Source of the DNA: a phage
Reading direction: 5' to 3' (one strand)
Sequence record: OZ335956.1
DNA: 49,912 nucleotides
Position 1 is the first letter of the stretch. Every line of letters starts with the position of its first letter. The position numbers were made by a program, and so were the translations under genes. Below, in pieces: positions 3,659 to 38,271 of the stretch. The notes beneath the pieces were generated by a model that had not been told where the DNA came from, did not search any database, and saw only the letters and a program-made list of their open reading frames with translations.

Positions 3659-3660
3659 AA

Positions 3661-13830: not shown

Positions 13831-13852
13831 CCCGCCTTGCGCGGGTTTTTTT
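13831..13852 (+). terminator. rho-independent terminator, followed by TGTAGAATGG -10-like element
   Basis: CCCGCCTTGCGCGGG hairpin followed by T7; same hairpin recurs at 16010. Confidence 0.6.
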
Positions 13853-13893
13853 GTGGCTGTAGAATGGTATCAACTAAACGAGAGGAAAAAGCA

Positions 13894-16009: not shown

Positions 16010-16032
16010 CCCGCCTTGCGCGGGTTTTTTTT
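16010..16032 (+). terminator. rho-independent terminator, followed by TGTATAATGG -10-like element
   Basis: CCCGCCTTGCGCGGG hairpin followed by T8. Confidence 0.6.
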
Positions 16033-16080
16033 CGCCTGTATAATGGGTTCACCGATAAATAGCACAAAAAGGTAAACATC

Positions 16081-19000
16081 ATGATTCAAAAAGTGATAAG
16101 CGGATCTAAGGGCGGCTCGTCTAAGCCTCATAATCCAGTTGAAATGGAAGATAACCTGATCTCAATTAACAAGATCAAGATCCTGTTAGCTATATCTGAC
16201 GGCGAGATTGACGAAACATTCAGCCTCAAGCAACTGATGTTTAACTCGGTCCCGGTGCAAAACGAGGATGGATCATTCAACTTCGAAGGGGTAAAGGCAG
16301 AGTTCAGGCCGGGCACGCAGACTCAGGAATACATCAAAGGCATGGAAGATAGCGCCAGTGAGGTAACTGTAAACCGTGAGGTTACGACCGATAATCCGTA
16401 CACGATCGCAGTAACCAATAAAACTCTGTCGGCAATCCGTATAAAAATGTTCATGCCTCGCGGAGTACGCATTGAAAACAATGGCGATAAAAACGGCGTT
16501 AGAGTTGAGTACGAAGTGCAGCAAGCGGTTGATGGGGGTTCGTTTGAGACGGTGCTCACTGACGTAATCGAAGGCAAAACAATGTCAGGTTACGACAGAA
16601 GTCGTCGCGTAAACCTGCCGAACTTCAATAATCAGGTGATATTCAGAGTCGTTCGCAAAACTCCAGACTCTAACGATTCGAACGTTGTCGATGCAATCCA
16701 GGTGAGAAGCTATGCCGAGGTAATTGATGCCAAATTCCGTTACCCTCTGACTGGTCTTCTTTTTGTTGAGTTTGATTCGAAGATGTTCCCGAGCCAGTTA
16801 CCTACGATCTCAATTCGTAAGCGATGGAAGATTGTAAACGTTCCGTCTAACTATGATCCAGAATCACGAACCTATAACGGGAATTGGGATGGAACTTTTA
16901 AGAAGGCGTGGACGAATAACCCTGCCTGGGTGCTTTATGACCTGATGATTAATCAGCGCTATGGACTGGATCAGAAAGAGCTTGGAATCTCCGTAGATAA
17001 ATGGGCGCTATATGAGGCCGCGCAATATTGCGATCAGATGGTCCCTGACGGGAAAGGCGGTACTGAGCCTCGGTATCTTTGCGACGTGATAATCCAGTCA
17101 CAGACTGATGCTTACAAAGTTATTCGAGATATTTGCTCAATCTTCCGTGGCATGAGTTTTTGGAATGGTGAGAGCATTTCTGTAATCATCGACAGACCGC
17201 GTGAGCCTGCGTACATCTTCACGAACGACAACGTTGTTAATGGTGACTTCTCCTATACTTTCGCAAGCGAAAAGAGTATGTACACGACGTGTAACGTGAT
17301 GTTTGATGACGAACAAAACATGTATCAACAGGATGTTGAGCCAGTATTCGATCGTGAGGCGACTCTACGGTTCGGTAACAACGTAACGAGCATTACAGCG
17401 ATCGGATGCACTCGACGCAGTGAGGCTAACCGTCGCGGTAGGTGGATTCTGAAAACCAACCTACGCAGCACCACGGTAAACTTCGCTACCGGGCTGGAGG
17501 GAATGATTCCGACCATCGGGGATGTTGTAGCAATAGCTGACAACTTCTGGTCAAGTAACTTGACTATGAACCTATCAGGGCGATTGCTCGAAGTGTCTGG
17601 AAGTCAGATTTTCTTGCCGTTCCGTGTGGATGCTCGCGCAGGTGACTTTATTATCGTAAATAAGCCTGATGGCAAGCCCGTGAAGCGCACAATCTCAAGT
17701 GTTAGTGCGGATGGAAAGACCATAGAGATTAACATCGGCTTCGGCTTTCCTGTGAAGCCTAACACGGTGTTTGCAATTGACCGTACCGACCTTGCGTTAC
17801 AGCAGTACGTCGTGACTAAAATCGACAAGGGTGATGACGATGAGGAATTTACCTACAAAATCACTGCGGTCGAGTACGATCCTAACAAGTACGATGAGAT
17901 TGATTATGGCGTGAACATCGATGATAGACCTACAAGCATCGTTGAGCCTGACCAGATACCTAAACCGGAAAACGTGCAGGTGTCCTCAGAGTCGAGAATC
18001 GTCCAGGGGATGAGCGTAGAAACGATGATTGTTAGCTGGGATAAAGTGCCGTACGCAGTTTTCTATGACGTCCAGTGGCGAAAGGATAACGGCAACTGGC
18101 AGAACGTTCCGCAGACGGCAAACAAAGAGGTTTACGTTGAAGGGATTTACGCTGGTAACTATCAGGTTCGCGTTCGATCTGTGGCTGGCTCCGGTACGAC
18201 TTCAGGTTGGTCAAATATCGTAGCGGCGACGTTGACAGGTAAGCAAGGTGAACCGGGTCGACCGATTAACCTTACGGCTACGGATGATGTTGTTTTTGGT
18301 ATCCGTACAAAATGGGGGTTCTCTGAAGGTTCAGGCGATACTGCCTATACAGAGTTGCAACAGTCACCGGATGGAACGGTTGACAATGCAAGTTTACTCT
18401 CTCTGGTTCCGTATCCGCAGCATGAGTATTATCACTCACCAATGCCGGGCGGGAATATCGTGTGGTATCGGGTAAGGACGGTTGACAGGATCGGTAACGT
18501 GTCGCAGTGGACTGATTTTGTCAGAGGCATGGCATCAACGAACGTAGACGATATTATCGGTGATATTTCTGTTGATATCGAAAACTCGCCAGGTTACGAA
18601 TGGCTTGTTGATAATGCAACCGACAACGCAGCGCAGAACGCAGCGAACGCTGAAGCATCAATTGAAAACGCACTCGCTAACGATAGAGACGCGATCCACA
18701 TGAAGAAGGAGAACGGTAAACGAAAAGCCGAGTACACCAAATCTCTTAAACTGATTGCTGACGAGACAGAGGCGCGCGTGACGGCTGTTGAGCAATTGAA
18801 AGCTAGTTTTGGAGATCAGATTAGCGCGAGCAATAGCGAATTGCGTGAGGTTATCGCAACTGAGACAGGTGCGCTATCTCGCGAGATTGACCAACTCAAG
18901 GCAGAGATTGGTGATGATATTCAGGCAAGTTTGACCGATATCCGTGAAGCCATCGCGAACGAGACTGAGGCAAGAACGCAAGCTGACTTAACGTTAAGCG

Positions 19001-19530
19001 CGCGACTTGGGGATAATGAGGCGGCACTTTCTCAAAAACTTGACTCGTGGAGTAACGCGGATTCGACTGGCGCAATGTACGGCGTCAAGCTGGGACTTAA
19101 GTATAATGGTCAGGAATACAGCGCAGGCATGGCTATGTCTCTGATTGGTTCTGGCGCGGTTGTTAAGGCTCAGATTCTTTTTGAGGCGTCACGATTTGCC
19201 ATCATGACAGGAATGAATGGTCAGACTCAGTATCCTTTCGTGGTTGAGAATGGTCAAGTTATCCTGAGTAGCGCAATCATCAAGGATGGATTTATTACTA
19301 ACGCAATGATTGGTAACGCAATTCAGTCTAACAATTGGGATGGATATCAAGGGTGGCATATTAACAAGAATGGTGCAGCTTACTTTATGAACGCAACAGT
19401 AAGGGGTGCTTTGTATGCAGATAACGGATCGTTTGCATTCAACGGAACAAACAACACGGTTCAGATAAACAATAACGGGATCACGGTTAACCTACCTAAC
19501 GGGGGCCGAGTGGTTGTTGGTGTCTGGTAA
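16081..19530 (+). CDS. central tail fiber / host specificity protein (lambda J-like)
   Basis: 1149 aa, largest ORF after tape measure; fibronectin-III-like and coiled-coil segments; gene order. Confidence 0.8.
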   Translation: MIQKVISGSKGGSSKPHNPVEMEDNLISINKIKILLAISDGEIDETFSLKQLMFNSVPVQNEDGSFNFEGVKAEFRPGTQTQEYIKGMEDSASEVTVNREVTTDNPYTIAVTNKTLSAIRIKMFMPRGVRIENNGDKNGVRVEYEVQQAVDGGSFETVLTDVIEGKTMSGYDRSRRVNLPNFNNQVIFRVVRKTPDSNDSNVVDAIQVRSYAEVIDAKFRYPLTGLLFVEFDSKMFPSQLPTISIRKRWKIVNVPSNYDPESRTYNGNWDGTFKKAWTNNPAWVLYDLMINQRYGLDQKELGISVDKWALYEAAQYCDQMVPDGKGGTEPRYLCDVIIQSQTDAYKVIRDICSIFRGMSFWNGESISVIIDRPREPAYIFTNDNVVNGDFSYTFASEKSMYTTCNVMFDDEQNMYQQDVEPVFDREATLRFGNNVTSITAIGCTRRSEANRRGRWILKTNLRSTTVNFATGLEGMIPTIGDVVAIADNFWSSNLTMNLSGRLLEVSGSQIFLPFRVDARAGDFIIVNKPDGKPVKRTISSVSADGKTIEINIGFGFPVKPNTVFAIDRTDLALQQYVVTKIDKGDDDEEFTYKITAVEYDPNKYDEIDYGVNIDDRPTSIVEPDQIPKPENVQVSSESRIVQGMSVETMIVSWDKVPYAVFYDVQWRKDNGNWQNVPQTANKEVYVEGIYAGNYQVRVRSVAGSGTTSGWSNIVAATLTGKQGEPGRPINLTATDDVVFGIRTKWGFSEGSGDTAYTELQQSPDGTVDNASLLSLVPYPQHEYYHSPMPGGNIVWYRVRTVDRIGNVSQWTDFVRGMASTNVDDIIGDISVDIENSPGYEWLVDNATDNAAQNAANAEASIENALANDRDAIHMKKENGKRKAEYTKSLKLIADETEARVTAVEQLKASFGDQISASNSELREVIATETGALSREIDQLKAEIGDDIQASLTDIREAIANETEARTQADLTLSARLGDNEAALSQKLDSWSNADSTGAMYGVKLGLKYNGQEYSAGMAMSLIGSGAVVKAQILFEASRFAIMTGMNGQTQYPFVVENGQVILSSAIIKDGFITNAMIGNAIQSNNWDGYQGWHINKNGAAYFMNATVRGALYADNGSFAFNGTNNTVQINNNGITVNLPNGGRVVVGVW

Positions 19531-19536
19531 CAGAAA

Positions 19537-19559
19537 GGGGCCGATTGGCCCCTTTTTTT
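19537..19559. terminator. bidirectional terminator
   Basis: GGGGCCGATTGGCCCC flanked by A-run upstream and T7 downstream; lies between convergent genes. Confidence 0.6.
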
Positions 19560-20591
19560 AATACATGTTTGGAGTGAAAGGAATTGGCATTGAAATGTTT
19601 ATGTTGAATGGGAATTGAGCGCCGCTCTGAGTAGAATAGTTACCTACCATCGTTCCTGGTGCGCTTCTAACGTTACCTCCGCTCATGCACACGCCCTTGT
19701 ATCGGATGTTATTATATCCACCTGTAACCCTGCATATTGTGCCAGTTCTCAGTATTGGGAAAAATCCACCGCACCACTGCCAGCCGTCATTTATCGCCAT
19801 AGTCCCGCCGAGAACGAAGGGGCGTCTAACGCTTGAGAAAACGATCTGACCAGCGGGATTGCTCATAGTAATTCCCGGTCCTGGAGGTGGTGGAGTGTTA
19901 TTAAATATTACGAGTTGCACGTATACGCTCGCGCCAACGTCATCAATCCCGTTATAGTTTGCATCCCTACACCATATAGTATTTCCGTCAGATTCAAGTG
20001 TTACGTTTGGGTTATCCCACATACCGAAAGGAACGCCCTGGACTGGCAATTGAGCCTGACCGTTAACCTGGATGCCTCCAACAAATGCGGCACTCATCAA
20101 CCTTGCGTTATTCGGTATCGCTGCGAAGTTGGTTGAATCGTTGACAAGTATCCCCTGATTTCCTGCCTGAGCGGGGAGAATTTCGTAACAGTTGCCATAA
20201 AATCTCATCCTTCTTCCACCGTGACCGTTAAAATTCCCTACCGTTATTCGCCCGGTTGAATCATTAACCTTCTGAAAGCTGGTTAAATAATACACCTCAG
20301 GAATATAATATTCCCTACCGTTATTCGCCCGGTTGAATCATTAACCTTCTGAAAGCTGGTTAAATAATACACCTCAGGAATATAATTCATGTCGTCTATG
20401 TAGATGGACTGAGATGGAAGGCAAAAAGCAGTAGATCCAGGACTCATTTGCAGACCAAAATCAAAAACCGATCCCGATGAGTCAACGCCGTCCGCTTGTA
20501 TTGGTCCGCACCATGACGGTGCGCGAAGCCCCGAGGTTATCTCCATTGCCGGACGACCGTCATTTAAGTTTATGTATATTCCTTGTCCCAT
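19558..20591 (-). pseudogene. putative receptor-binding protein gene, frameshifted by a 77-bp tandem duplication
   Basis: two - strand ORFs (20283..20600 and 19558..20295) both contain YYLTSFQKVNDSTGRITVGN; removing one 77-bp copy restores a single 966-nt (321-aa) Gly/Asn-rich ORF. Confidence 0.55.
20233..20386. repeat. perfect tandem duplication, 2 x 77 bp
   Basis: 20233-20309 and 20310-20386 are identical on direct comparison; 77 is not a multiple of 3. Confidence 0.9.
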
Positions 20592-20593
20592 AA

Positions 20594-20824
20594 TTACCAC
20601 TCTTTAGTTTTGATTGACACCTTGCCGCTAAAGTTTCCCTGGTCGTCGTCTGATGACAGACCTTTGAATCGCATGTCGATTTCTCCAGCGGGAACATTCT
20701 GCCCGTCAACGAATCGCATCATGCAAGAACCGTACGCGTAAGTAACACAGTCGCCATTTTTAAGATTCTGAGCGCAACCAGTCAGGATGAATGCAGAAGC
20801 GATAATGGTGATTAATTTTTTCAT
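20594..20824 (-). CDS. small lipoprotein, superinfection-exclusion-like (Llp/Cor-type candidate)
   Basis: 76 aa; signal peptide with lipobox ILTGC; sits directly upstream of the putative receptor-binding protein gene on the same strand. Confidence 0.55.
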   Translation of the reverse strand: MKKLITIIASAFILTGCAQNLKNGDCVTYAYGSCMMRFVDGQNVPAGEIDMRFKGLSSDDDQGNFSGKVSIKTKEW

Positions 20825-23605: not shown

Positions 23606-23627
23606 CCCCGCATTGCGGGGATTTTAT
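23606..23627. terminator. bidirectional terminator
   Basis: CCCCGCATTGCGGGG flanked by A-run and ATTTTAT, between convergent genes. Confidence 0.55.
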
Positions 23628-25411
23628 CATTTGGACTTCAATGTTTTTATCTCTTCTTGTAACTCTTCAACTTTCTTCATTGTATCCTGCAAAGCTCTCA
23701 TAGTGTCAAGCAATAAAGGAGTTGTATCAAGCTCAAGCCTTTCAACTTTTGGCCCGTTTAGCTCGTGGCTCTCATAAACCCTTCTCTTAACATATAGATT
23801 GTCGATCTCTTCTATCTCCTGAGCTATAACACCTCGCCTTACCCTTTCTTGCTCATCATCGTTAAATATAAAGTTCCTAAATCTCATTGATTTTATGTTG
23901 TTGTATGCAATGCTTGATTCATCATCCTTTATGCTGTGCTTTATATTTCTGTCAGATGCCGGAATCTGTTGGAAACTTCCAGCCCCTTGCGGTCCAGCGT
24001 AAGATATTTGCCCTGAAGCCATAAACCTGAAATGCATTTGCAGACCAATATTGCCTGCTCCATCCCTATCTTGAGCGCCTACTGATATTTGTGCCCTGGG
24101 CCATTCAGGATTACCCGTAGTCATCATGCCAAATGCTACGCCGCCAACGTATCCCTGACCTCTGGTGTCGCACGATCCAGCAATAAGTGATTGATAGTTT
24201 TCAGCGCCACTATCGGCGGTGTAAGCACCAGCCTGAAAACACGTCTCAGACCACATCTGGTTGTAACCCATATTTCCTTTATTACATAAAAGCTGAGAAG
24301 CCCTGAATCTATTATTAGTCTCGAAGTAGTTTGAACCCTCATAAAACAATAAAGTTCCAGCATAACCATCACTTCCATTACCTTTTCTGACGTAAAGCCC
24401 TGGCACAGAAAGTCCATCCGGTGAAATAATCATAAGTGATGAAAGTATGGACTGACTACCCCAGCTAGAACCGTCCCACGAGTTCCTTCCTGCACCTATA
24501 GGACCCGTGGTGTTAATAGTAAGAAAGTTAACAGCATCATTTTCACCTAACCCAATATTTTTTCTTGACTCTTTTTTATCCTCAAGGCCAGCTAGATTGC
24601 CATCCTTAGTTAAAAGATTTTCAGCATTGATGCTATTGGCTGCGTCTTTCGCTTCTTGAGCGCTCACCGCTGCCGCATCTTTTGAGCTAACAGCATCGTC
24701 ACGCGCTGCCTGAGCGTCGTTTTTTGCAGAGGTCGCCGTTTGTGCTGCCGTTTGAGCGTCATTAACGTAACCTGACAGATCGCCTTTTGCGTCATTAATT
24801 GCCTGAATCGCCGCCGCTTCTTCTGAGTCAATGTGAGAAATGACAGATGATTCCTTTGATCCTATATCAGTTATGGCCTGATCCTTCGCCGCATTGATGC
24901 TACCGACAGCACCGTCAACAATCTGCTGTGTCTGATTCTTGATTGAGTTAGTTTCATCACGTGCGGCGTTAGCTGCGTCACGAGCTAATTCAGCCTGGTT
25001 TTGTGCGGCTTGAGAGTCTGATTTAGCCTGGTTCACCTCAGCAACTATTTGCTCAAGTTTATTCATATCAAGCTGATTTATCAGGTCTATAGCTGCTGCG
25101 ATCTCAGTCTCCTTGCTTTGATAGTATCTAAGCGTCTCAGCAACGTTTTGAGCCAAGCCGTTAACAGTCAACGAATCGTTAAGCAGGATCACATACTTAC
25201 CGTCAGCGGCAGTCTGACCATCTGTAGAGATAGCCTTTAACTCAGTATCGCTCACGATATCGCTAATTACAGCCAGCTTAATCGGTTGCTCCAGAAATAC
25301 GATGGTTGCACCGACTCGAATAAGAGCAAGCTGGTCTTTCCATTTTGTATCGGTTCCGCGAACCGTACCGTCTGCATCCATTGATGCTGTGCCGCGTCTA
25401 TATAAAGCCAT
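23627..25411 (-). CDS. lateral tail fiber with C-terminal intramolecular chaperone domain
   Basis: 594 aa; A/Q/D-rich coiled-coil shaft; C-terminal NIKHSIKDDES...DDEQERVRRGVIAQEIEEI...LQEEIKTLKSK resembles the self-cleaving chaperone of fibers and tailspikes; RBS AAGGAG. Confidence 0.7.
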   Translation of the reverse strand: MALYRRGTASMDADGTVRGTDTKWKDQLALIRVGATIVFLEQPIKLAVISDIVSDTELKAISTDGQTAADGKYVILLNDSLTVNGLAQNVAETLRYYQSKETEIAAAIDLINQLDMNKLEQIVAEVNQAKSDSQAAQNQAELARDAANAARDETNSIKNQTQQIVDGAVGSINAAKDQAITDIGSKESSVISHIDSEEAAAIQAINDAKGDLSGYVNDAQTAAQTATSAKNDAQAARDDAVSSKDAAAVSAQEAKDAANSINAENLLTKDGNLAGLEDKKESRKNIGLGENDAVNFLTINTTGPIGAGRNSWDGSSWGSQSILSSLMIISPDGLSVPGLYVRKGNGSDGYAGTLLFYEGSNYFETNNRFRASQLLCNKGNMGYNQMWSETCFQAGAYTADSGAENYQSLIAGSCDTRGQGYVGGVAFGMMTTGNPEWPRAQISVGAQDRDGAGNIGLQMHFRFMASGQISYAGPQGAGSFQQIPASDRNIKHSIKDDESSIAYNNIKSMRFRNFIFNDDEQERVRRGVIAQEIEEIDNLYVKRRVYESHELNGPKVERLELDTTPLLLDTMRALQDTMKKVEELQEEIKTLKSK

Positions 25412-29071: not shown

Positions 29072-29484
29072 TTACAGACAAAGGTGATTATTTAGAGTTT
29101 TACGAACGAGATCCCAGCGACACACGAAAGGAGGACGCGCACCAGGTAGATTGCGTGTCCTGGCTGAAATACAATTTCCCACATCTTCTATTTTGGCACA
29201 CTGTAAATGAAGGTGAAAAAACAATCACCTCGGCGCTCAGGGATGAGCAGGCTGGGTTACTTAAAGGAGTGTCAGACTTCGTTATCCTGATTGGTGTAAA
29301 CTCACGCTACCCGTTCGCAGCTATCGAACTCAAGCGGGTTAATAAGTCCGGCAAGGGAAAGGCGTCACCAGTCAGCGATAAGCAAAAGGAATTTCTCCGC
29401 AATGTTCGTCAACGAGGTGGATTTGCTGCGGTTGCATATGGATTGGAGCAATTCAAGATCGCAATTTACGAAATGATGAAATAG
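29068..29484 (+). CDS. VRR-NUC domain nuclease (putative)
   Basis: 138 aa; GVSDFVIL...AIELKR matches the D..ExK core of VRR-NUC; RBS GGAGGA. Confidence 0.65.
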   Translation: MITDKGDYLEFYERDPSDTRKEDAHQVDCVSWLKYNFPHLLFWHTVNEGEKTITSALRDEQAGLLKGVSDFVILIGVNSRYPFAAIELKRVNKSGKGKASPVSDKQKEFLRNVRQRGGFAAVAYGLEQFKIAIYEMMK

Positions 29485-29496
29485 CACTTTTTGTTA
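29482..29496. promoter_or_regulatory. palindromic motif site TAGCA-N5-TGTTA
   Basis: tagcactttttgtta; includes stop codon of preceding gene. Confidence 0.55.
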
Positions 29497-29551
29497 AAAC
29501 TGCCGGAATGGAATCTGGCATTATTACCTCACCGAAACGAGAGGACTAAAA

Positions 29552-30265
29552 ATGAAAGACTTTAATGACATTGAAACTATCGACTTTGCAGAAACTGGTT
29601 GCTCATTCACTCGCGAAGCAATAGCATCAGGCGGTTATTATCAGGCATTGAAAACGCCAACCTGTAAAGAAATCTCCGGTCGTCGATATAAGGGAACAAA
29701 TACGCCTGACGCAGTTCGTGATTTATGGTCTACCCCACGAGAGGTTATTGCATACCTTGAGGGTCGTTACGGAAAATACGATCTCGATGCTGCGGCAAGC
29801 GAAGAAAATAAAGTTTGCGAGAAGTTTTATTCTCAGGAAACAAACTGCTTAAAACGTTGGTGGGGTAAGAGCAAGCACGTTTGGTTAAATCCTCCTTACA
29901 GCCGCCCTGATATATTCGTCAAAAAGGCGATTGAGCAAATGGAGCACAACAATCAGATCGATATGTTGTTACCTGCCGATAATTCGACGGCGTGGTTTAC
30001 TGAGGCTCGACAGCACGCGGCTGAAATTATCTGGATTGAAGCGGATTTGACTGAAGATATCGACGGTAACGAGTATGCTCGATCCGGTCGCCTGGCCTTC
30101 ATATCCGGTGAAACTGGAAAGGCGGTTGACGGTAATAACAAAGGTTCGGTAATTTTCATTATGCGCGAACTGAAAGAAGGTGAGGTTCAACAGACCCACT
30201 ACATTCCAATCACAAGCATTTGCCCTTCGGTGAAGAACAAACGAGCAAAAGTGAGGAAAGTATGA
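29552..30265 (+). CDS. dam: DNA N6-adenine methyltransferase (Dam-like)
   Basis: catalytic NPPY motif in WLNPPYS; size and layout of phage Dam-type enzymes. Confidence 0.75.
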   Translation: MKDFNDIETIDFAETGCSFTREAIASGGYYQALKTPTCKEISGRRYKGTNTPDAVRDLWSTPREVIAYLEGRYGKYDLDAAASEENKVCEKFYSQETNCLKRWWGKSKHVWLNPPYSRPDIFVKKAIEQMEHNNQIDMLLPADNSTAWFTEARQHAAEIIWIEADLTEDIDGNEYARSGRLAFISGETGKAVDGNNKGSVIFIMRELKEGEVQQTHYIPITSICPSVKNKRAKVRKV

Positions 30266-30513
30266 TGAACGAAAAAATGATTCCGGTTAAGTTAACTGAG
30301 CAAGGCTTATGGCTTCTTTATCGCGCTACGTGCTGCGAAATCATGGAACAAAACGGATTGACGAAAGATGTTATTGGTTGCGACTTATGGGAGTTTACCA
30401 GTTCTCTTGATATGTCATTCGACGAGATAAAGAATGAACACATTGATTATTGGCCTTCGCTCATACAAAGAGACGTAGAAGAATTTAAATCTGATACGAT
30501 CGCACAGCACTAA
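30262..30513 (+). CDS. hypothetical protein
   Basis: ATG 30262 with RBS GAGGAAAG; ends at motif site. Confidence 0.5.
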   Translation: MMNEKMIPVKLTEQGLWLLYRATCCEIMEQNGLTKDVIGCDLWEFTSSLDMSFDEIKNEHIDYWPSLIQRDVEEFKSDTIAQH

Positions 30514-30519
30514 TTGCTA
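30505..30519. promoter_or_regulatory. palindromic motif site CAGCA-N5-TGCTA
   Basis: cagcactaattgcta followed by hairpin CCCGGC..GTCGGG and TATAGT. Confidence 0.5.
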
Positions 30520-30579
30520 AAACTACCCGGCGAAAGTCGGGTATAGTTATTTCATCGAAACGAAATGAGGAATCAGAAG

Positions 30580-30789
30580 ATGGCACGCATTAACGCAAAC
30601 TTTTTCAATATCGCCCAGCAGTCTGCAAAAATGGCCGTTCATATTACGAGTAAGCAAGGTGGCAACTTCGATTGGGATATTGCTATGAACTTCCTTAAAA
30701 TGTCTTATTACCGTTGCTCGGTTGAAGAAGTCGAATGCTTCATCTCTGACGTGGAGAAATTAACTAATGCTGATAAAAAAGCAAGGTAA
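30580..30789 (+). CDS. hypothetical protein
   Basis: ATG 30580 with RBS GAGGAA; 69 aa. Confidence 0.5.
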   Translation: MARINANFFNIAQQSAKMAVHITSKQGGNFDWDIAMNFLKMSYYRCSVEEVECFISDVEKLTNADKKAR

Positions 30790-31039
30790 GCGCGAAGTGT
30801 GGGAGCATGCAAAGGAATGCGGGATCTCAGGCGATATAGCACTAATCGCTAAATACTTCGATATAAAGGATGTTAGCATTATTTCAAACGGCAAGATTTC
30901 ATTTATGGAAGATATGCCGAGAAAAATGCATAGAGTACCAGCTACTCCATCGCTTGAGTTTTACCGTGAAGAAGGAAAGAGAATTGAACGAGAACGAAAA
31001 GCAGCAAAAAACATCAAGTCTTCCCGGCTTAAATATTAA
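30767..31039 (+). CDS. hypothetical protein (one of two overlapping frames)
   Basis: 90-aa ORF; overlaps 30870..31271 by 170 nt in another frame. Confidence 0.3.
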   Translation: MLIKKQGKREVWEHAKECGISGDIALIAKYFDIKDVSIISNGKISFMEDMPRKMHRVPATPSLEFYREEGKRIERERKAAKNIKSSRLKY

Positions 31040-31271
31040 TGCTGACGACTACCAGACAATATGGATCGGGAAAAAGCAGGTCAAGCAAATCCCCTTCTCT
31101 GATTGGTTGCCTCCTGACTTCGTTAACGTGCTTTGCACTATCGGGAACGATCAGGAATTGCACATTGGATATTATTCGCCAGGAAGAAACAGAATGATGC
31201 TTGAGGTTGACGGAAAGCTGGTTGAGTTCAAATCATCAGATCTAGGTTTCTGGTTAAAGGCTGTAGCGTGA
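30870..31271 (+). CDS. hypothetical protein (one of two overlapping frames)
   Basis: 133-aa ORF with AAGGA before ATG 30870. Confidence 0.35.
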   Translation: MLALFQTARFHLWKICREKCIEYQLLHRLSFTVKKERELNENEKQQKTSSLPGLNINADDYQTIWIGKKQVKQIPFSDWLPPDFVNVLCTIGNDQELHIGYYSPGRNRMMLEVDGKLVEFKSSDLGFWLKAVA

Positions 31272-31349
31272 AACTTTATTTTGCTGTAGTATTAACACCG
31301 CTAATTTCATTTTCAGTAATGTATTTCATTATCATGTAAGGGTTAAAAT

Positions 31350-32501
31350 ATGTCACAAGCTAAAATCACTACCGAGCAACTAATCGAAGAGCGCATGAAC
31401 GGCCTAACGCTTCGCGAGATCGCGGAAAAGTACGGTATGCATATCCGCACGGTTGAAGCGCGTCACGCCAAACTTGCAAAAGAAGGCCACTTTCACGGTA
31501 ACGAGCATGTTGCTAAAAACGTTCCAGAAGGCTTCATGGTTAAAGGTACATCAACGATGATTCGAGGTGATGGGACCGAAGTGGTCCGCTGGGTTAAGAC
31601 AGATCAGGATCGTGAGAAGATTGCCGCAATGATGGAAGCGGCTCGTATTGCATTCTGCGAAGACCTGCCGCGAGCAAAGCCAACCGAGCTACTCACCTCG
31701 CAAGGACTTACAACCGCGATCGGTAAGCTGGCGCTCTATCCGGTATTCGACCTTCACATCGGCGCGCTTGCTCACAAGCATGAGTGCGGAGAGAACTACT
31801 CTACCGACGTAGCTGAAAAAGTGCTGGGCGACTTCTTCAATTATGCGATCGATATCGCGCCAAATGCAGAGAAAGCCGTTCTGTTAATCGGCGGTGACTT
31901 CCTTCACTCTGACGGCCTTGACGCTGTAACCCCGGCAAGCGGTCACGTTCTGGATCAGGATTCACGATACGCTAAGTTGGTGCATGTAGCGATTCGATCG
32001 GTGCGACGAGCTATCGACAAAATGCTGACGAAACACAAAGAAGTCGAAGTCCAGGTCATTGAAGGAAACCACGACCAATCAGGAATGATTTGGCTGCGCG
32101 CTGCAATGGCTGCATACTATGAAGACGAGCCGCGAGTATTCGTTGACGTGAGTCCTATGATTCTGCATAAGACTCGCTGGGGCAATACCTTGCTGGGATA
32201 CACTCACGGTCACACGATGAAAAAGGCCGACATTCGACTTGCAGCAATGGCGGCAGACTTCCGCGCAGACTTCGGTGAAAGCAAATACGTGTACACGCAC
32301 AGCGGACACTGGCATCATCAGACAATCACTGAACACTCGTTAGGAATTGATGAGGTTCACGGGCAGTTAGGAGCGAAGGATGCATACGCCGCGCGAGGCG
32401 GGTGGCGCTCATATCGCCAAGCGGCGGTAATCGTTTACGACAAGCAATTTGGTGAGATAGGTCGATTCATCTATCGTCCAGAAATGACAGGATCGCACTA
32501 A
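31350..32501 (+). CDS. metallophosphoesterase with N-terminal HTH
   Basis: calcineurin-like motifs DLHIG, GGDFLH, GNHD, GHTH, GHWH; N-terminal LTLREIAEKYGMHIRTV resembles an HTH. Confidence 0.65.
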   Translation: MSQAKITTEQLIEERMNGLTLREIAEKYGMHIRTVEARHAKLAKEGHFHGNEHVAKNVPEGFMVKGTSTMIRGDGTEVVRWVKTDQDREKIAAMMEAARIAFCEDLPRAKPTELLTSQGLTTAIGKLALYPVFDLHIGALAHKHECGENYSTDVAEKVLGDFFNYAIDIAPNAEKAVLLIGGDFLHSDGLDAVTPASGHVLDQDSRYAKLVHVAIRSVRRAIDKMLTKHKEVEVQVIEGNHDQSGMIWLRAAMAAYYEDEPRVFVDVSPMILHKTRWGNTLLGYTHGHTMKKADIRLAAMAADFRADFGESKYVYTHSGHWHHQTITEHSLGIDEVHGQLGAKDAYAARGGWRSYRQAAVIVYDKQFGEIGRFIYRPEMTGSH

Positions 32502-32507
32502 TTGCTA
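32493..32507. promoter_or_regulatory. palindromic motif site (degenerate left half) TCGCA-N5-TGCTA
   Basis: tcgcactaattgcta followed by hairpin CCCGAA..TTCGGG and CATAGT. Confidence 0.45.
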
Positions 32508-32565
32508 AAAACGCCCGAAGGGATTCGGGCATAGTAACCACATCGAAAACAAATAGGTAATATCA

Positions 32566-32742
32566 TGAAACGTGTTAAATGCATCCGAAATGATTCCAAA
32601 ACTCTTCCATTCCGCGTAAATCAGATCTATAGTGTGGGTTATGATTTCGGTGGTGGATTATTTGAGATTTACGACGGTCGAGGCTCTTCAATCCAAGCAC
32701 CTCTGAACGGTCACTACCTGGAATTTATTGCAATAGATTAAC
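32566..32742 (+). CDS. small hypothetical protein (58 aa, below track cutoff)
   Basis: ATG 32566 downstream of a complete motif-hairpin module; open to TAA 32740-32742. Confidence 0.45.
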
Positions 32743-32763
32743 AATATCATTCATCAACTTACT

Positions 32764-32795
32764 GGCTGGCATGGTTTACATGCTGGCCTTTTGTC
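32764..32795 (+). terminator. terminator-like hairpin
   Basis: GGCUGGCAUG..CAUGCUGGCC with two G-U pairs, followed by TTTTG. Confidence 0.3.
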
Positions 32796-32859
32796 GTTGT
32801 ATCAAATAAATTTGAAGGTTAAAATCGACTCACTTGTTCAAAAAATATATGGTGAGATT

Positions 32860-33075
32860 ATGAAAGAATTTTTAACCGCAGCGACGTCAAGCACGGGCGG
32901 CGCTTCTCTTGTCGGGGCAGCTACCGGGCAACTTTACATTGCTGGCGCTACATTCATTTGCTTTCTGCTTTTTGGTGTGTGGGGAGCGTACTGGAAGTAT
33001 CGTGATAGCAAGGCGATTCAGGAAGCGTTAAACGATGGCGATCTAAATAAGGCACTTAAGATCAGGGGGAGATAA
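32860..33075 (+). CDS. holin (putative, 71 aa)
   Basis: ATG 32860 with RBS GGTGAG; hydrophobic core with charged C-terminus; immediately upstream of and overlapping endolysin start. Confidence 0.6.
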
Positions 33076-33563
33076 TGAGCTTAAAAAATAACGTTATAGG
33101 CGCATCGATCGGGGCTGCTTTGACGTTGACGCCTACCCTGCTGGAACGAATCGAAGGGATAGAATACGAGGTGTATTACGATATCGCCGGAGTCCCTACC
33201 GTATGCAGCGGAATAACCGGGCCGGACGTCATACCTGGTAAGAAATACACTAAGCGAGAATGCGATGCATTACTGATAAAACATATCGGCGTCGCTCAGC
33301 GATACGTTGACAAAAAGGTGAATGTTGATATTCCGGTAACGATGCGCGCGTCACTGTACAGCTTCACTTTCAACGTTGGTACTGGCGCGTTCGGATCTTC
33401 TACAATGCTTAAGCTAATAAATCAGAGTAAGCACAAGGAAGCGTGCAATCAGTTATGGCGATGGGTATACTACCACAACCCAAAAACAAAAAAGCGAGAA
33501 GTGTCTAGAGGACTTAAGAACCGACGCGCTGAAGAATACGCGTATTGCGTTAAGGAATTATGA
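33075..33563 (+). CDS. endolysin (lysozyme-like)
   Basis: 162 aa; N-terminal E...D...T-type catalytic region ([23 protein letters not shown]) typical of phage lysozymes. Confidence 0.75.
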
Positions 33564-33964
33564 TGAAACTGAAGAAAACGTGCATTGCGATTGCATTGGC
33601 TTTTGGTGTTATTTCCCTATCCGGTTGCTCGACGGCATCTGCCCTGAGCGGTTTAATCGGATCTAAACCGGAAGTTACAGCACAAATCGGAGAGGAGAAC
33701 ACAAAGCAATTAGCAGGAGTAACCGCAAAATCCGAAGATAAGCGAGATGTTAAAGTTGATAAGTCCAATGTAGGAAAGATTGACTCTTCCTTGAAGAAGT
33801 CAATTGAAGTGTCAACCATTAAGGCTAACACGGTTAACGCTGAAAGCATCACAGTAACAAAACCGGAAAACTGGTACGATGCTATCGTTGGCTGGATTCT
33901 CGTTTTTATCGGTCTATTGCTGGTTTATTTTTCACTTCGTAAGGACGAAAAAAAGGAGGCTTAG
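33560..33964 (+). CDS. unimolecular spanin (lipoprotein with C-terminal transmembrane anchor)
   Basis: signal peptide with lipobox LSGC plus C-terminal transmembrane helix ([13 protein letters not shown]); same architecture and position as the T1 gp11 u-spanin. Confidence 0.65.
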
Positions 33965-33976
33965 CCTCCTTTGTTA
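33953..33976. terminator. bidirectional terminator between convergent lysis and leftward early genes
   Basis: GGAGGCTTAGCCTCC flanked by A-run and TTTGTTATTTG. Confidence 0.5.
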
Positions 33977-34085
33977 TTTGTACCTTTTGACGTGGAGTAG
34001 CAACTCACCTTCCTGATCGCAAAGATTGTGCTCACTGTCGTTGTTGGCCCTCATTGAAGTGAGCAACAGACTCAACAACCCTTGC

Positions 34086-34493
34086 TCAAATTCTTCTTTC
34101 GTAAGCTGGAGCCTTGCGCACAATTCGACGTTCCGATCTATCAACGTTTCTACGTTCGCTAAACAAGTCTTCATCACTCATTTCTCCAATGTGCATCATT
34201 TCCCATGTATATCGATTGTTGTAGCCATCAATACACATCAGCTTCATCATTACCGGGCGCTTAATCTTTCCCTTGCACCAGTAAAATCCATCTTTGCAAT
34301 CAAGATAACCCTCAGTTACACAGCGTGAGCAAAACTCCTTAGATAGCGCGCTTGTAAATTCACGGCGAGTCATCCCGGCGGCCTTAGCGAATCGCTCACT
34401 TTCCTTGTGGGCGTATATAAATTTCGCTATGTGCTGTCGGGTGTATTTGTCGTATCCTTCGCAGAACCGGAACAGATCTAAAAGAAGAAGCAT
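34086..34493 (-). CDS. hypothetical Cys-rich protein
   Basis: 135-aa ORF translationally coupled to upstream gene. Confidence 0.5.
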   Translation of the reverse strand: MLLLLDLFRFCEGYDKYTRQHIAKFIYAHKESERFAKAAGMTRREFTSALSKEFCSRCVTEGYLDCKDGFYWCKGKIKRPVMMKLMCIDGYNNRYTWEMMHIGEMSDEDLFSERRNVDRSERRIVRKAPAYERRI

Positions 34494-34497
34494 ATAA

Positions 34498-36066
34498 TTA
34501 ACCCATCAGTCGAGGATTGATGAAAACAATATCATCAATGCGGCAAGTGTAGTTCATCTCTTCGAGCGTGATCAGCAGACTGTCGATTCGCTCAGCTACC
34601 TTCTGCTGACCGTTGAACGGAGTAACGTTCCGACACTTCGCTACAATGCTATGAATCGGTGCGCGGCCTTTGTTCTTCTTCGCGATCTCAGTGATAACAT
34701 CAATCAGTTTACGGGATTCAGCCTCATCACCAGCATATCCGGCAGCACTGGCAGAAGAAAGATAAGTCCTGGAAAGCTCATTGAAAATCATAATCGCTTC
34801 CTGCATTGTTTCGAGATCAATCTCACGATTAGCTCGGTTCGGTGATTCACCCTCCCAATTCTTGATCGTGTGAAGAACTGAGGCGATACGCAGAGCGTGC
34901 TTATCGAACTTTCCGAGATGACCGCGCAGCATTGAGTGAGAGTATTTCCCCCCGGCGGCGAAATCCGGTTCCATAGCCTGACGCGCCAGGTTTAATTCAC
35001 GCATAGCATTACGGCTTACAGAGAGAACAACGTTTTCCTCCTTCATGATGTTATGCACGAGTCGATAATATTTGCTAACCAGTCCGCGATCGACTTCCTT
35101 ATACAGTGCATCACCATTTTCATCGCACAGAATACGAGTACCTAAAAGCGGTTCCTCACGAACTAACAAGAAGCGCTCAGATACACCGATACCTCGTTGG
35201 CCTGCGTCCATGATACCCTTGATTGTTTCATCCTGAGCAATTACGCAGATCGAACCTACCGGGCACAGGGACAAGTTATTGTCCTGGTTGGATCGAGCGA
35301 CCTCCATGTGGTTTTTATCCCACGCCTTAAGGATAAGTTCACTGTTGGATTTCTTATCTGAACCTCCATACGTCAGTCCAAGCAATGTATTGATTGCCGT
35401 TGCTTCATCAGAGATTACGGAGAAGTGACCTTGAACAGCCGCCACTTTCGCCAGACCTTCGGGTGTAGGATCTGATACCGCGAAAACAATATCAGCCATC
35501 TTCTTGATCTTCTCTTCCAGTTTCTCTTTGTCTTCGTACAGAGCCGCAGTCGTGTTACCCTTCTGGTCGTTCTTGATTTCCTTCTCAACCTGACGTAGCT
35601 GACTGGTTAAACGGATACGCTCCTTTTTGCGTTCTTCATTCAGTCGCTGAATCTCCGCGCGCATAGGAGTAATTGCCGCTGAGTTAATCGCTGATTTACC
35701 CGTTGACGGCGGCTGACTGATTACCATATAAAGCGCGGTCGGTTGTTCTTCGCCGTGATATTGCACCCAAAACTTCCCGAGCATCGCGGCTGAGATGCAA
35801 CCGATGAAATGAGCGTACGCAGACGAAACCGGGAACTGAACTGACTCAGCCTTCGCCTTTGCATATTCGAATACCAGGTTATCGCCACCTAACGAAATCA
35901 GCGGGAACTTATCGTTGCCGCTATTGATATCGATCGGGTCTTGCCAAAACGAAACTGAATCCCCATAACTGTTTTCACGAATTGCGATCGCCACCGGATT
36001 AACTCCAGTGCTATTGGCGATCTCAATAATCTGTTGGTAATTAAGTTTTGGCTTAATATTAAACAT
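34498..36066 (-). CDS. P-loop NTPase-like protein (putative replication or recombination ATPase)
   Basis: start MFNIKPK with RBS AAGGAG; Walker-A-like QPPSTGKSA; ~522 aa. Confidence 0.5.
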   Translation of the reverse strand: MFNIKPKLNYQQIIEIANSTGVNPVAIAIRENSYGDSVSFWQDPIDINSGNDKFPLISLGGDNLVFEYAKAKAESVQFPVSSAYAHFIGCISAAMLGKFWVQYHGEEQPTALYMVISQPPSTGKSAINSAAITPMRAEIQRLNEERKKERIRLTSQLRQVEKEIKNDQKGNTTAALYEDKEKLEEKIKKMADIVFAVSDPTPEGLAKVAAVQGHFSVISDEATAINTLLGLTYGGSDKKSNSELILKAWDKNHMEVARSNQDNNLSLCPVGSICVIAQDETIKGIMDAGQRGIGVSERFLLVREEPLLGTRILCDENGDALYKEVDRGLVSKYYRLVHNIMKEENVVLSVSRNAMRELNLARQAMEPDFAAGGKYSHSMLRGHLGKFDKHALRIASVLHTIKNWEGESPNRANREIDLETMQEAIMIFNELSRTYLSSASAAGYAGDEAESRKLIDVITEIAKKNKGRAPIHSIVAKCRNVTPFNGQQKVAERIDSLLITLEEMNYTCRIDDIVFINPRLMG

Positions 36067-36123
36067 CACAATGAACTCCTTAGTTGACGGTGTAAATGAT
36101 ACACCGCCAATGGTACACGCGTT

Positions 36124-36138
36124 TTGCAAAAAGTGCTA
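36124..36138. promoter_or_regulatory. palindromic motif site
   Basis: ttgcaaaaagtgcta (- strand reads atagcactttttgcaa). Confidence 0.5.
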
Positions 36139-36142
36139 TTAG

Positions 36143-36559: not shown

Positions 36560-36623
36560 TGCGCTCACTCCTGATTGGTTTTCTTGAATAAGGCCACTTT
36601 ATCAAATGACCTTACGGCAATAT

Positions 36624-36638
36624 TAACAAATCGTGCTA
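36624..36638. promoter_or_regulatory. palindromic motif site
   Basis: taacaaatcgtgcta; - strand module homologous to the one at 44093. Confidence 0.55.
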
Positions 36639-36639
36639 T

Positions 36640-36849: not shown

Positions 36850-36853
36850 TAAA

Positions 36854-37078: not shown

Positions 37079-37140
37079 TTCTAATTCCTTTGTTTCGTTT
37101 GGTGTGGGAGTAATATATATCACTCCCGATTGTATGTCTT

Positions 37141-37616: not shown

Positions 37617-37632
37617 TATTCCCCCTAACCGT

Positions 37633-38270: not shown

Positions 38271-38271
38271 A

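What the first reader, a model, noticed from the sequence alone, without database searches (positions are those of the whole stretch)
19558..20824. Receptor-binding locus opposite the J-like gene with a superinfection-exclusion-like lipoprotein
Convergent with the J-like gene, a 76-aa lipoprotein gene (lipobox ILTGC) directly precedes a Gly/Asn-rich gene of about 321 aa on the - strand. This matches the arrangement in which a dedicated receptor-binding protein is paired with a small lipoprotein (Llp of T5, Cor of phi80/N15) that blocks the receptor after infection.
Basis: partly seen in the sequence, partly recalled or inferred. Interest (0 to 1): 0.45.

Follow-up and report, generated by a model that had tools for sequence, protein, structure and literature searches.

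The report
LptD-type phage receptor-binding and exclusion module
This is the already-described two-gene host-recognition cassette of T1-like phages, a receptor-binding protein for the outer-membrane LPS exporter LptD plus a small lipoprotein that blocks that receptor after infection; here the receptor-binding gene is broken by an exact 77-base repeat that is most likely an assembly artefact.

Summary
The window is a complete Tunavirus (T1-like) genome. It is almost identical to Escherichia phage UP30 and is rotated to start at terL.

The 76-aa lipoprotein gene (20594-20824, -) is real. It is 66% identical to the Oekolampad exclusion lipoprotein and 35% identical to Rtp45, whose structure on LptDE is solved. 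The gene after it belongs to DUF6453. It is 42% identical over its full length to the Oekolampad receptor-binding protein (RBP) solved on LptDE (PDB 9RPT), and 39% identical to Rtp44.

- The family is Rtp44/Rtp45-type, not Llp or Cor.
- The receptor is LptD, not FhuA.
- SH6, whose RBP is 98% identical, is already listed in the literature as a predicted LptD binder.

There is no intact ~321-aa ORF in the window. A perfect 77-bp tandem duplication (20233-20309 = 20310-20386) splits the gene into 102/105-aa and 245-aa ORFs. The following point to an untrimmed SPAdes k=77 circularisation overlap rather than biology:
- The length is exactly 77 bp.
- There is no microhomology at the boundaries.
- A unique SNP directly abuts the repeat.
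- The genome was rotated to terL.
- The repeat is absent from UP30 and its reads, and from the seven other Tunavirus loci fetched.

Two unique nonsynonymous changes (D69N, R289M) are the only mildly new biology.

The parts
16081..19530 (+). gpJ-like central tail fibre / tail tip protein (1149 aa). It is the presumed docking platform for the RBP.
   Evidence: Pfam FNIII-A_GpJ, Phage-tail_3 and Phage_Tail_Tip. 91.8% identical to T1 gp33 over residues 1-1131 and 60% identical to Rtp43.
19335..19530 (+). C-terminal tip of gpJ (last ~65 codons). It belongs to the exchangeable specificity cassette.
   Evidence: DNA homology to T1 stops at window 19334. The last 70 aa are 35.6% identical to T1 J, 72.3% to Rtp43 and 55.9% to Oekolampad J. 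The preceding 200 aa are 82.6%, 63.2% and 31.0% identical respectively.
19535..19554 (.). Bidirectional intrinsic-terminator hairpin between the convergent gpJ and RBP genes.
   Evidence: Stem GGGGCC / GGCCCC extended by A-U pairs. Folding energy is -19.5 kcal/mol (+) and -17.9 kcal/mol (-), z about -4.2. Terminators are annotated on both strands at the same place in phage SA32RD.
19558..20295 (-). C-terminal fragment ORF of the LptD-type RBP gene (245 aa, residues 74-318 of the intact protein).
   Evidence: Pfam DUF6453 profile positions 69-291, E 2.6e-95. Contains the unique R289M change at 19649.
20233..20309 (.). Copy 1 of the exact 77-bp tandem duplication.
   Evidence: Identical to 20310-20386. 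Reported by TRF with period 77. It is the only long perfect tandem repeat in the window. It is single-copy in UP30, in the Logan assembly of UP30's reads, and in seven other Tunavirus loci.
20310..20386 (.). Copy 2 of the 77-bp duplication. The SNP at 20387 (C->T, D69N) abuts it.
   Evidence: There is no microhomology at the boundaries: shifting the 77-nt frame by 1 nt either way destroys the identity.
20283..20591 (-). N-terminal fragment ORF of the RBP gene (102 aa from ATG 20591: residues 1-94 plus 8 out-of-frame residues).
   Evidence: Pfam DUF6453 profile positions 1-90, E 7.6e-32. The ATG start agrees with the UP30, SA32RD, SH6 and Oekolampad annotations.
20594..20824 (-). Superinfection-exclusion lipoprotein of the Rtp45 / SE_Oeko family (76-aa precursor, 60-aa mature).
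   Evidence: PF24052, E 1.2e-23. phrog_4281. 9RPS_D (Rtp45), E 4e-9. 65.8% identical to Oekolampad bas18_0026 and 34.7% identical to Rtp45. Cys26/Cys34 align with the Rtp45 disulphide Cys30/Cys38.
20774..20824 (-). Signal peptide plus lipobox Cys17. It is also the right-hand recombination joint of the cassette.
   Evidence: DNA homology to T1 resumes at 20774. The first 17 aa are identical between T1 Cor and the SH6-type lipoprotein, while the mature parts are unrelated.

Best explanation
The locus is the LptD-specific allele of the host-recognition cassette that small siphophages (Drexlerviridae, Dhillonvirus, Queuovirinae) carry just downstream of gpJ.

The cassette runs from about window 19335 to 20773 and has three parts:
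- the C-terminal tip of gpJ;
- a 318-aa DUF6453 receptor-binding protein (RBP);
- the mature part of a 60-residue outer-membrane lipoprotein.

Inferred mechanism, taken from the solved homologues:
- The RBP docks non-covalently on the gpJ tip. It inserts its loop-bearing end into the extracellular mouth of the LptDE lipopolysaccharide translocon, which commits the phage to DNA injection.
- The lipoprotein is made in the infected cell and is lipidated at Cys17. Ala at +2 directs it to the outer membrane.
- There it binds the periplasmic side of LptD and pushes extracellular loop 4 outward, so the RBPs of incoming or released phages can no longer bind.
- The two genes appear co-transcribed and translationally coupled (TAA-tt-ATG). 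They end at a terminator shared with gpJ.

The 77-bp tandem duplication that splits the RBP gene in this sequence is most likely not biological. It looks like the k=77 terminal overlap of a circular de Bruijn-graph contig. The contig was cut at the graph node just before a polymorphic site (20387), and the overlap was left in when the contig was rotated to begin at terL. On this reading the real phage has an intact 318-aa RBP.

Shown here: homology, synteny, cassette boundaries, and the exact anatomy of the duplication.
Inferred: LptD binding, the exclusion phenotype, docking on gpJ, and the artefact origin.
For: Identity of the genome:
- The window equals phage UP30 (Tunavirus) rotated to the terL ATG. 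It differs by 3 SNPs, 1 extra base and the 77-bp duplication.

RBP:
- Pfam DUF6453 covers both fragments.
- The intact version matches PDB 9RPT/9RPW/9RQI chain C at E 1.7e-66 over residues 1-318. That chain is the Oekolampad RBP bound to LptDE.
- It is 41.8% identical to RBP_Oeko and 38.8% identical to Rtp44 over the full length. This meets the >30% identity / ~full coverage criterion used for the LptD RBP family in bioRxiv 10.64898/2026.04.02.716166.
- SH6, whose RBP differs from the window's at 7 of 318 residues, is already modelled as a predicted LptD-RBP (PMC13035648).
- TheodorHerzl, experimentally LptD-dependent, and Bas83 fall in the same tblastn family.

Lipoprotein:
- PF24052.
- It matches Rtp45 (9RPS_D) at E 4e-9, with the disulphide cysteines conserved.
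- It is 65.8% identical to the Oekolampad lipoprotein, which sits next to RBP_Oeko.

Synteny:
- The order gpJ -> | <- RBP <- lipoprotein | exoVIII, Erf, SSB, <- lateral fibre is the same in Rtp.

Selection:
- Relatives differ from the window at 63-78 synonymous but only 3-7 nonsynonymous RBP codons. The gene is therefore functional in the lineage.

Artefact reading of the duplication:
- It is exactly 77 bp, perfect, and has no boundary microhomology.
- 77-bp identical contig ends produced by SPAdes on circularly permuted phage genomes are documented (PMC9409062).
- The unique SNP at 20387 is the 78th base from the inferred contig start. That is where a path that starts at the branching node before a bubble would place it.
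- The genome starts exactly at terL.
- The junction is absent from 50,697 phage records and from IMG/VR.
- UP30's own reads assemble through this region as a single copy.
Against: - No experiment on this phage or on its near-identical relatives shows LptD dependence or exclusion. The receptor call rests on 39-42% identity to validated members.
- The artefact origin cannot be proven without the reads of this particular assembly, which I could not identify. The window's protein variants are not in the 15-billion-protein collection.
- A real duplication accompanied by an adjacent point mutation would also explain why the SNP sits next to the repeat.
- The timing of expression and the promoter are unknown. 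The promoter-like hits upstream are no more frequent than in shuffled sequence.
Confidence: 0.78

Rival explanations
1. The 77-bp tandem duplication is real. In that case this isolate carries a frameshifted RBP gene. It would be one of three things: a defective or minority genotype; a phage that survives through frequent precise reversion, helped by its own Erf/exonuclease recombination genes; or a phage that uses the two overlapping fragments (residues 1-94 and 74-318) or another adsorption route.
For: - The duplication is present in the sequence as given.
- Three of the five differences from UP30 lie in this 957-bp gene, which is 1.9% of the genome. By my own binomial estimate, the chance of at least 3 of 5 falling there is about 7e-5. 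This suggests the gene is under unusual pressure in this stock.
- Both amino-acid changes are unique among nine Tunavirus sequences.
- The Logan assembly of UP30's reads also breaks inside this gene.
Against: - The length is exactly the SPAdes k-mer size of 77, and there is no microhomology at the boundaries.
- The gene is under strong purifying selection in all relatives, and it is the only terminal-receptor determinant known for this cassette type.
- gpJ here has no C-terminal extension that could replace the RBP. It is 1149 aa, and the gpJ CDS is also 3450 nt in UP30, SA32RD, SH6 and Shfl1.
- No other record carries the junction.
Confidence: 0.15
2. The pair is a FhuA-directed system of the T5 pb5/Llp or T1/phi80 Cor kind.
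For: - The arrangement is the same in general terms: a small lipoprotein next to a host-specificity gene.
- There is a weak PHROG hit to the Cor family, E 1.9e-5.
- T1, of the same genus, uses FhuA and has cor at the same position.
Against: - The Cor hit covers residues 1-33 only. Against T1 Cor, BLAST aligns only residues 1-18 (16 of 18 identical), and the mature parts are unrelated.
- There is no alignment to T5 Llp at E<=100. The PDB search at E<=10 did not find Llp, although Llp is in the library.
- There is no similarity to pb5.
- The T1 allele has a different gene content, with gp32 and gp31 co-oriented with J plus cor. Neither T1 protein resembles the window RBP.
Confidence: 0.02
3. The DUF6453 protein is a host-cell membrane protein or moron, as PHROG and RefSeq label it, and not a virion RBP.
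For: - It is annotated 'membrane protein' in UP30 and RefSeq records.
- phrog_1265 is filed under 'moron, auxiliary metabolic gene and host takeover'.
Against: - The homologue from Oekolampad binds the extracellular face of LptDE in cryo-EM.
- LptD point mutations that give phage resistance abolish that binding in vitro.
- The family tracks receptor specificity across genera.
- The gpJ tip co-varies with it.
Confidence: 0.03

Closest known systems
Oekolampad (Bas18, Dhillonvirus) RBP bas18_0025 and SE lipoprotein bas18_0026. PDB 9RPT/9RPW/9RQI.
   Same: - Same two genes in the same order and orientation next to the J-like gene.
- The RBP is 41.8% identical over its full length, and the lipoprotein is 65.8% identical.
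- The gpJ tips are related: 55.9% identity in the last 70 aa.
   Different: - The phage genus and backbone are different.
- RBP sequence identity is only moderate, so the contact residues on LptD may differ.
- In Oekolampad the cassette is followed by the lateral tail fibre gene, not by the recombination module.
Phage Rtp (Rtpvirus, Drexlerviridae) Rtp44 / Rtp45. PDB 9RPS.
   Same: - The synteny is identical, including exoVIII, Erf, SSB and the lateral fibre downstream.
- Rtp45 is the structurally characterised exclusion lipoprotein of the family. The disulphide cysteines, the VPAGE(I/V)D motif and the C-terminal KEW are conserved.
   Different: - The RBP is 38.8% identical and the lipoprotein 34.7% identical.
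- Rtp45 has a longer signal peptide and a shorter C-terminal half.
Tunavirus SH6 gp49/gp50, with UP30, ISF002, DELF2, Shfl1 and others.
   Same: - Essentially the same genes. The RBP differs at 2-7 of 318 residues and the lipoprotein at 0-6 of 76.
- The SH6 RBP is already listed as a predicted LptD binder.
   Different: - The window alone has the 77-bp duplication and the D69N and R289M changes.
T5 pb5 (oad) / Llp
   Same: - The logic is the same: a dedicated RBP plus a small periplasm-facing outer-membrane lipoprotein that makes the receptor unable to bind the RBP.
   Different: - There is no sequence similarity.
- The receptor is FhuA.
- Llp acts by long-range allostery, whereas Rtp45 physically displaces a loop.
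- The T5 genes are divergent rather than in tandem.
Cor of T1 / phi80 / N15
   Same: - It occupies the same genomic slot in the same genus.
- The signal peptide and upstream region are the same as in T1 cor.
   Different: - The mature protein is unrelated.
- Cor is linked to FhuA.
- The T1 allele lacks a DUF6453 gene.

Membership tests
LptD-targeting RBP family of small siphophages (DUF6453; Rtp44 / RBP_Oeko) | [quoted passage not shown] | tested here: met
   41.8% to RBP_Oeko (1-318 vs 1-321, E 9e-78) and 38.8% to Rtp44. PDB 9RPT_C, E 1.7e-66.
LptD-targeting RBP family of small siphophages (DUF6453; Rtp44 / RBP_Oeko) | Pfam DUF6453 (PF20051) above the gathering score | tested here: met
   111 and 319 bits for the two fragments against a cut-off of 25. 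Together they cover profile positions 1-291.
LptD-targeting RBP family of small siphophages (DUF6453; Rtp44 / RBP_Oeko) | Encoded immediately downstream of gpJ, convergent with it, and preceded by a small lipoprotein gene | tested here: met
   The layout is the same in Rtp, Oekolampad and SH6.
LptD-targeting RBP family of small siphophages (DUF6453; Rtp44 / RBP_Oeko) | Single intact ORF of 930-960 bp | tested here: not met
   In the window as given, the gene is split by the 77-bp duplication. Removing one copy gives 957 bp / 318 aa. I judge the failure to be an assembly artefact, not a property of the phage.
LptD-targeting RBP family of small siphophages (DUF6453; Rtp44 / RBP_Oeko) | A matching gpJ C-terminal tip that co-varies with the RBP type | tested here: met
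   The last 70 aa of J are 72.3% identical to Rtp43 and 55.9% to Oekolampad J, against 35.6% to T1 J.
LptD-targeting RBP family of small siphophages (DUF6453; Rtp44 / RBP_Oeko) | Binds LptDE, and infection is abolished by lptD loop mutations | not testable with these tools
   Shown for Oekolampad, Bas01/02 and OzMSK only.
Rtp45-type superinfection-exclusion lipoprotein (PF24052) | Pfam PF24052 above the gathering score, and similarity to Rtp45 / SE_Oeko | tested here: met
   83.3 bits against a cut-off of 27. 9RPS_D, E 4e-9. 65.8% identical to SE_Oeko and 34.7% to Rtp45.
Rtp45-type superinfection-exclusion lipoprotein (PF24052) | Sec/SPII signal peptide with a lipobox, and a non-Asp residue at +2 (outer-membrane sorting) | tested here: met
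   MKKLITIIASAFILTG|C-A read directly from the sequence. The sorting rule is established E. coli knowledge and was not tested here.
Rtp45-type superinfection-exclusion lipoprotein (PF24052) | Conserved cysteine pair that forms the Rtp45 Cys30-Cys38 disulphide | tested here: met
   Window Cys26 and Cys34 align with Rtp45 Cys30 and Cys38.
Rtp45-type superinfection-exclusion lipoprotein (PF24052) | Binds periplasmic LptD and confers exclusion | not testable with these tools
   Structure shown for Rtp45 only.
T5 Llp | Sequence similarity to Llp, and adjacency to a pb5-type RBP | tested here: not met
   No BLASTP alignment at E<=100. Llp (8a60_B, 7qjf_A) is in the PDB library but was not hit at E<=10. 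The pb5 comparison shows only chance-level matches.
Cor (T1 / phi80 / N15) | Similarity of the mature protein to Cor | tested here: not met
   The PHROG Cor hit is restricted to residues 1-33. Against T1 Cor, BLAST aligns only residues 1-18, and the mature parts score E 0.06 over 8 residues.

The most novel reading that the evidence does not exclude
The 77-bp duplication is a genuine mutation in a viable phage stock. If so, a Tunavirus can propagate with its LptD receptor-binding gene frameshifted. It might do this by rapid recombinational reversion of the tandem repeat (an on/off state of the RBP), by reassembly of two overlapping RBP fragments, or by an RBP-independent entry route. The clustered unique changes D69N and R289M would then mark ongoing selection on the LptD interface. 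R289M lies 7 residues before the position aligned with RBP_Oeko Gln299, which hydrogen-bonds LptD loop 4.
Probability: 0.1. Interest if true: 0.5.

Novelty: already known. Interest (0 to 1): 0.15.

Why it matters
- **Practical value.** UP30-like Tunavirus phages are still annotated 'membrane protein' and 'hypothetical protein' at this locus. They can be predicted to use the essential LptDE translocon rather than FhuA. This bears on host-range prediction, on choosing T1-resistant production strains (fhuA/tonA deletions would not protect), and on phage-steering ideas.
- **Sequence quality.** The 77-bp repeat is worth flagging as a probable assembly or re-orientation artefact. It turns the key host-range gene into an apparent pseudogene and would mislead automated receptor prediction.
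- **New biology.** None is established here.

Tried and rejected
- **Search for the duplication junction elsewhere.** An 80-nt query across 20309|20310 against 50,697 phage records matched only as two halves. The exact 28-mer is absent from IMG/VR.
- **Exact look-up of the window's protein variants.** I looked up both fragments and the repaired N69/M289 protein among 15 billion proteins. None was present, so the source reads could not be located.
- **Literature search for UP30.** It gave only passing mentions.
- **Promoter and terminator scan.** Hits were no more frequent than in shuffled sequence. The scan missed the obvious J/RBP hairpin because its stem absorbs the T-run. I folded the hairpin directly instead.
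- **NCBIfam.** No family for the RBP, and only a sub-threshold signal-peptide hit for the lipoprotein.
- **Cor membership.** Rejected, because the PHROG hit is explained by a signal peptide shared with T1 cor.
- **Are assembly breakpoints generally enriched in this gene?** Only 2-3 of the 60 listed records have the gene at a record end. That is close to chance, so I make no such claim.
- **Not run.** I did not run the large homology search or structure prediction. A full-length match at E 1e-66 to a solved chain already settles the fold.
Full report
**What the window is.** The 49,912-nt window is a complete T1-like genome. It aligns end to end with Escherichia phage UP30 (OX638287.1; Drexlerviridae, Tunavirinae, Tunavirus), rotated so that window base 1 is the ATG of the large terminase gene. 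After correcting for an alignment-edge effect, the differences from UP30 are as follows:
- SNPs at 19649, 20387 and 48655;
- one extra T at 40226, which is the point where the UP30 record is linearised;
- a 77-bp tandem duplication.

**Checking the observation.**
- The lipoprotein gene is as described. ORF 20594..20824 (-) encodes 76 aa beginning MKKLITIIASAFILTG|C. It matches Pfam PF24052 'Phage lipoprotein family' at E 1.2e-23 and phrog_4281.
- Its stop codon is followed two bases later by the ATG (20591) of the next gene on the same strand.
- The gene pair is convergent with a 1149-aa J-like gene (16081..19530) that carries the FNIII-A_GpJ, Phage-tail_3 and Phage_Tail_Tip domains.
- The 27-nt spacer between the two stop codons forms a G+C-rich hairpin on both strands, z about -4.2. 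It is annotated as a bidirectional terminator in the relative SA32RD.
- The 'about 321 aa' gene does not exist as one ORF. The interval holds a 105-aa ORF (102 aa from the true ATG) and an overlapping 245-aa ORF. They match DUF6453 profile positions 1-90 and 69-291 respectively.
- The cause is an exact tandem duplication, 20233-20309 = 20310-20386. It is the only long perfect tandem repeat in the genome.
- Deleting one copy restores a 957-nt gene of 318 aa, or 321 aa from an upstream in-frame GTG. The protein is Gly- and Asn-rich (13.2% and 9.1%).

**What the two proteins are.**
- The repaired protein and its UP30 counterpart match one solved protein over their whole length: chain C of PDB 9RPT/9RPW/9RQI, E 1.7e-66.
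- The lipoprotein matches chain D of 9RPS, E 4e-9.
- These entries come from Dunbar et al. (bioRxiv 10.1101/2025.07.07.663478). [quoted passage not shown] Chain D is Rtp45, the superinfection-exclusion lipoprotein of phage Rtp, bound to the periplasmic side of LptDE.
- Pairwise, the window RBP is 41.8% identical to RBP_Oeko and 38.8% identical to Rtp44 over the full length.
- The lipoprotein is 65.8% identical to the Oekolampad lipoprotein bas18_0026 and 34.7% identical to Rtp45. Window Cys26/Cys34 align with the Rtp45 disulphide Cys30/Cys38.
- Gene order around the pair is the same in Rtp: J, then RBP and lipoprotein on the other strand, then exonuclease VIII, Erf, SSB and the lateral tail fibre. 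The pair has the same layout in Oekolampad.

**Fit with the published picture.**
- Maffei et al. (PMC8594841) showed that allelic variants of the locus downstream of gpJ match terminal-receptor specificity in small siphophages. They also showed that one variant goes with LptD.
- A 2026 preprint defines four unrelated RBP families, for FhuA, BtuB, LptD and YncD, by >30% identity and >99% coverage. The window protein meets that criterion for the LptD family.
- The RBP of Tunavirus SH6 differs from the window protein at 7 of 318 residues. It is already listed and modelled as a predicted LptD binder in PMC13035648.
- tblastn finds the family in 339 phage records. These include TheodorHerzl, which is experimentally LptD-dependent, and Bas83.

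- T5 Llp gives no BLASTP alignment at E<=100. It was not found in the PDB search at E<=10, although it is in that library as 8a60_B and 7qjf_A.
- T5 pb5 gives only chance-level matches.
- T1 carries a different allele at the same place. Two genes are co-oriented with J (gp32, gp31) and cor is on the other strand. Neither T1 protein resembles the window RBP.
- The weak PHROG 'Cor' hit covers residues 1-33 only. It is explained by a shared signal peptide. T1 Cor and the SH6-type lipoprotein have the same first 17 residues and unrelated mature parts.
- So the system works like Llp or Cor, but it is not a member of either family.

**Cassette boundaries.** Against T1, about 90% DNA identity runs to window 19334 and resumes at 20774. 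The exchangeable unit therefore comprises three parts:
- the last ~65 codons of gpJ;
- the RBP;
- the mature part of the lipoprotein.

Consistent with this, the last 70 residues of J are 35.6% identical to T1 but 72.3% to Rtp43 and 55.9% to Oekolampad J. The preceding 200 residues show the opposite ranking: 82.6%, 63.2% and 31.0%. This supports, but does not prove, docking of the RBP on the J tip.

**How it most likely works.** This is inferred from the homologues.
- The RBP sits on the J tip and inserts into the LptDE lumen, mainly contacting LptD loops EL3-5 and EL11.
- Resistance mutations in EL4 and EL11 abolish binding in vitro.
- The lipoprotein has Ala at +2 and is therefore expected in the outer membrane. 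It binds periplasmic LptD between LptE and LptM and displaces EL4 by up to 20 angstroms. This prevents RBP binding by steric displacement rather than by the allostery seen for Llp-FhuA.
- Among Tunavirus relatives the RBP shows 63-78 synonymous but only 3-7 nonsynonymous codon differences from the window. The gene is clearly maintained by selection.

**The duplication.** Several facts favour an assembly artefact.
- The repeat is perfect and is exactly 77 bp, the largest default SPAdes k for 150-nt reads. That default is my own knowledge of the software.
- PMC9409062 describes identical 77-bp sequences at both ends of SPAdes contigs of circularly permuted phage genomes, which must be trimmed.
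- There is no microhomology at the boundaries.
- The genome was re-oriented to terL. That step would turn an untrimmed terminal overlap into an internal tandem repeat.
- The unique SNP at 20387 is the base immediately after copy 2. It is therefore base 78 of a contig starting at 20310. A circular path cut at the branching node in front of a polymorphic site would place the variant exactly there.
- The repeat is single-copy in UP30, in seven other Tunavirus loci I fetched, and in the Logan assembly of UP30's own run ERR11523139.
- The junction occurs in no phage record or IMG/VR contig.
- A real frameshift would remove the only known terminal-receptor determinant from a phage whose J protein has no compensating extension.

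I put the artefact reading at about 0.8 and a real mutation at about 0.15. Without the reads this stays an inference.

**Residual biology.**
- The two amino-acid changes relative to UP30, D69N (20387) and R289M (19649), are unique among nine Tunavirus sequences. Both lie in this one gene, while only two other differences exist in the remaining 49 kb.
- R289 lies seven residues before Q296. Q296 aligns with RBP_Oeko Gln299, a residue that hydrogen-bonds LptD EL4 Ser350.
- The Logan contig of UP30's reads also ends inside the RBP gene and leaves 31 nt (window 19773-19803) unassembled.
- Together these hint at within-stock polymorphism of the RBP. I could not test this.

**Verdict.**
The lipoprotein and the layout are correct, but the large ORF is broken.
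- The system is already known, so interest is low.
- The useful outputs are a receptor prediction (LptD, not FhuA) for UP30-like phages and a warning about a probable untrimmed 77-bp overlap.

Noticed in passing
window 20774-20824; L005 (T1) 29800-29850: T1 Cor and the SH6-type Tunavirus LptD lipoprotein share an identical 17-aa signal peptide, MKKLITIIAAAFILTGC. The window has S10 in place of A10. The mature proteins are unrelated. The recombination joint of the specificity cassette therefore lies inside the signal-peptide coding region.
   Followed up: partly
L012 (StefiGeyer_Bas88) 3477-3803; also phages Paul, SGF2 and WFI101126: Homologues of the Rtp45-family lipoprotein occur in ~75-80 kb Gordonclarkvirinae podoviruses (31-38% identity, E 1e-5 to 5e-8). 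They sit in arrays of small genes, not next to an RBP. None of these phages appears among the 60 listed rows (of 339 records) of the DUF6453 search. This could be a stand-alone LptD-directed exclusion gene, or a hint that these phages touch LptD.
   Followed up: partly
window 19773-19803 (UP30 29459-29489): The Logan assembly of run ERR11523139 is 100% identical to UP30 over the two stretches fetched (3.4 kb and 5.2 kb, at the two ends of the contig). It gives one 49,804-nt contig whose two ends lie inside the RBP gene. Exactly 31 nt are left unassembled, at about codons 238-248. This may reflect read-level heterogeneity in the RBP. It is unexplained.
   Followed up: partly
window 29472-47550 (e.g. 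41753-41803): Eleven or more copies of a ~50-nt element, AGCACGAATTGCTAAAAC-N-TATAGT. It has promoter-like hexamers and a variable inverted repeat between them. The copies lie in the small-gene half of the genome. They are probably the phage's repeated early/middle promoters.
   Followed up: no
window 13831-13872, 16010-16051, 49274-49315: Three copies of a composite element. Each is a G+C hairpin with a T-run, followed directly by TGTAGAATGG / TGTATAATGG, that is, a terminator followed by an extended -10-like promoter. One copy sits just upstream of gpJ.
   Followed up: no
window 40226: One extra T relative to the join of the two ends of the UP30 record. So the window is not a simple rotation of that record. 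Either UP30 lost a base at its linearisation point or the window gained one.
   Followed up: no
L011 (Shigella phage ISF001) 160-1349: The ISF001 record has the lipobox cysteine replaced by Phe (LTGF). It has 14 nonsynonymous lipoprotein codons and 18 nonsynonymous RBP codons relative to the window, including W181S and W245C. This looks like poor sequence quality or decay of the cassette in that record.
   Followed up: no
window 23627-25411 (-): Lateral tail fibre gene (594 aa) with a C-terminal Peptidase_S74 intramolecular chaperone domain. This is the second, glycan-directed host-recognition determinant. It lies downstream of the exoVIII-Erf-SSB module.
   Followed up: no
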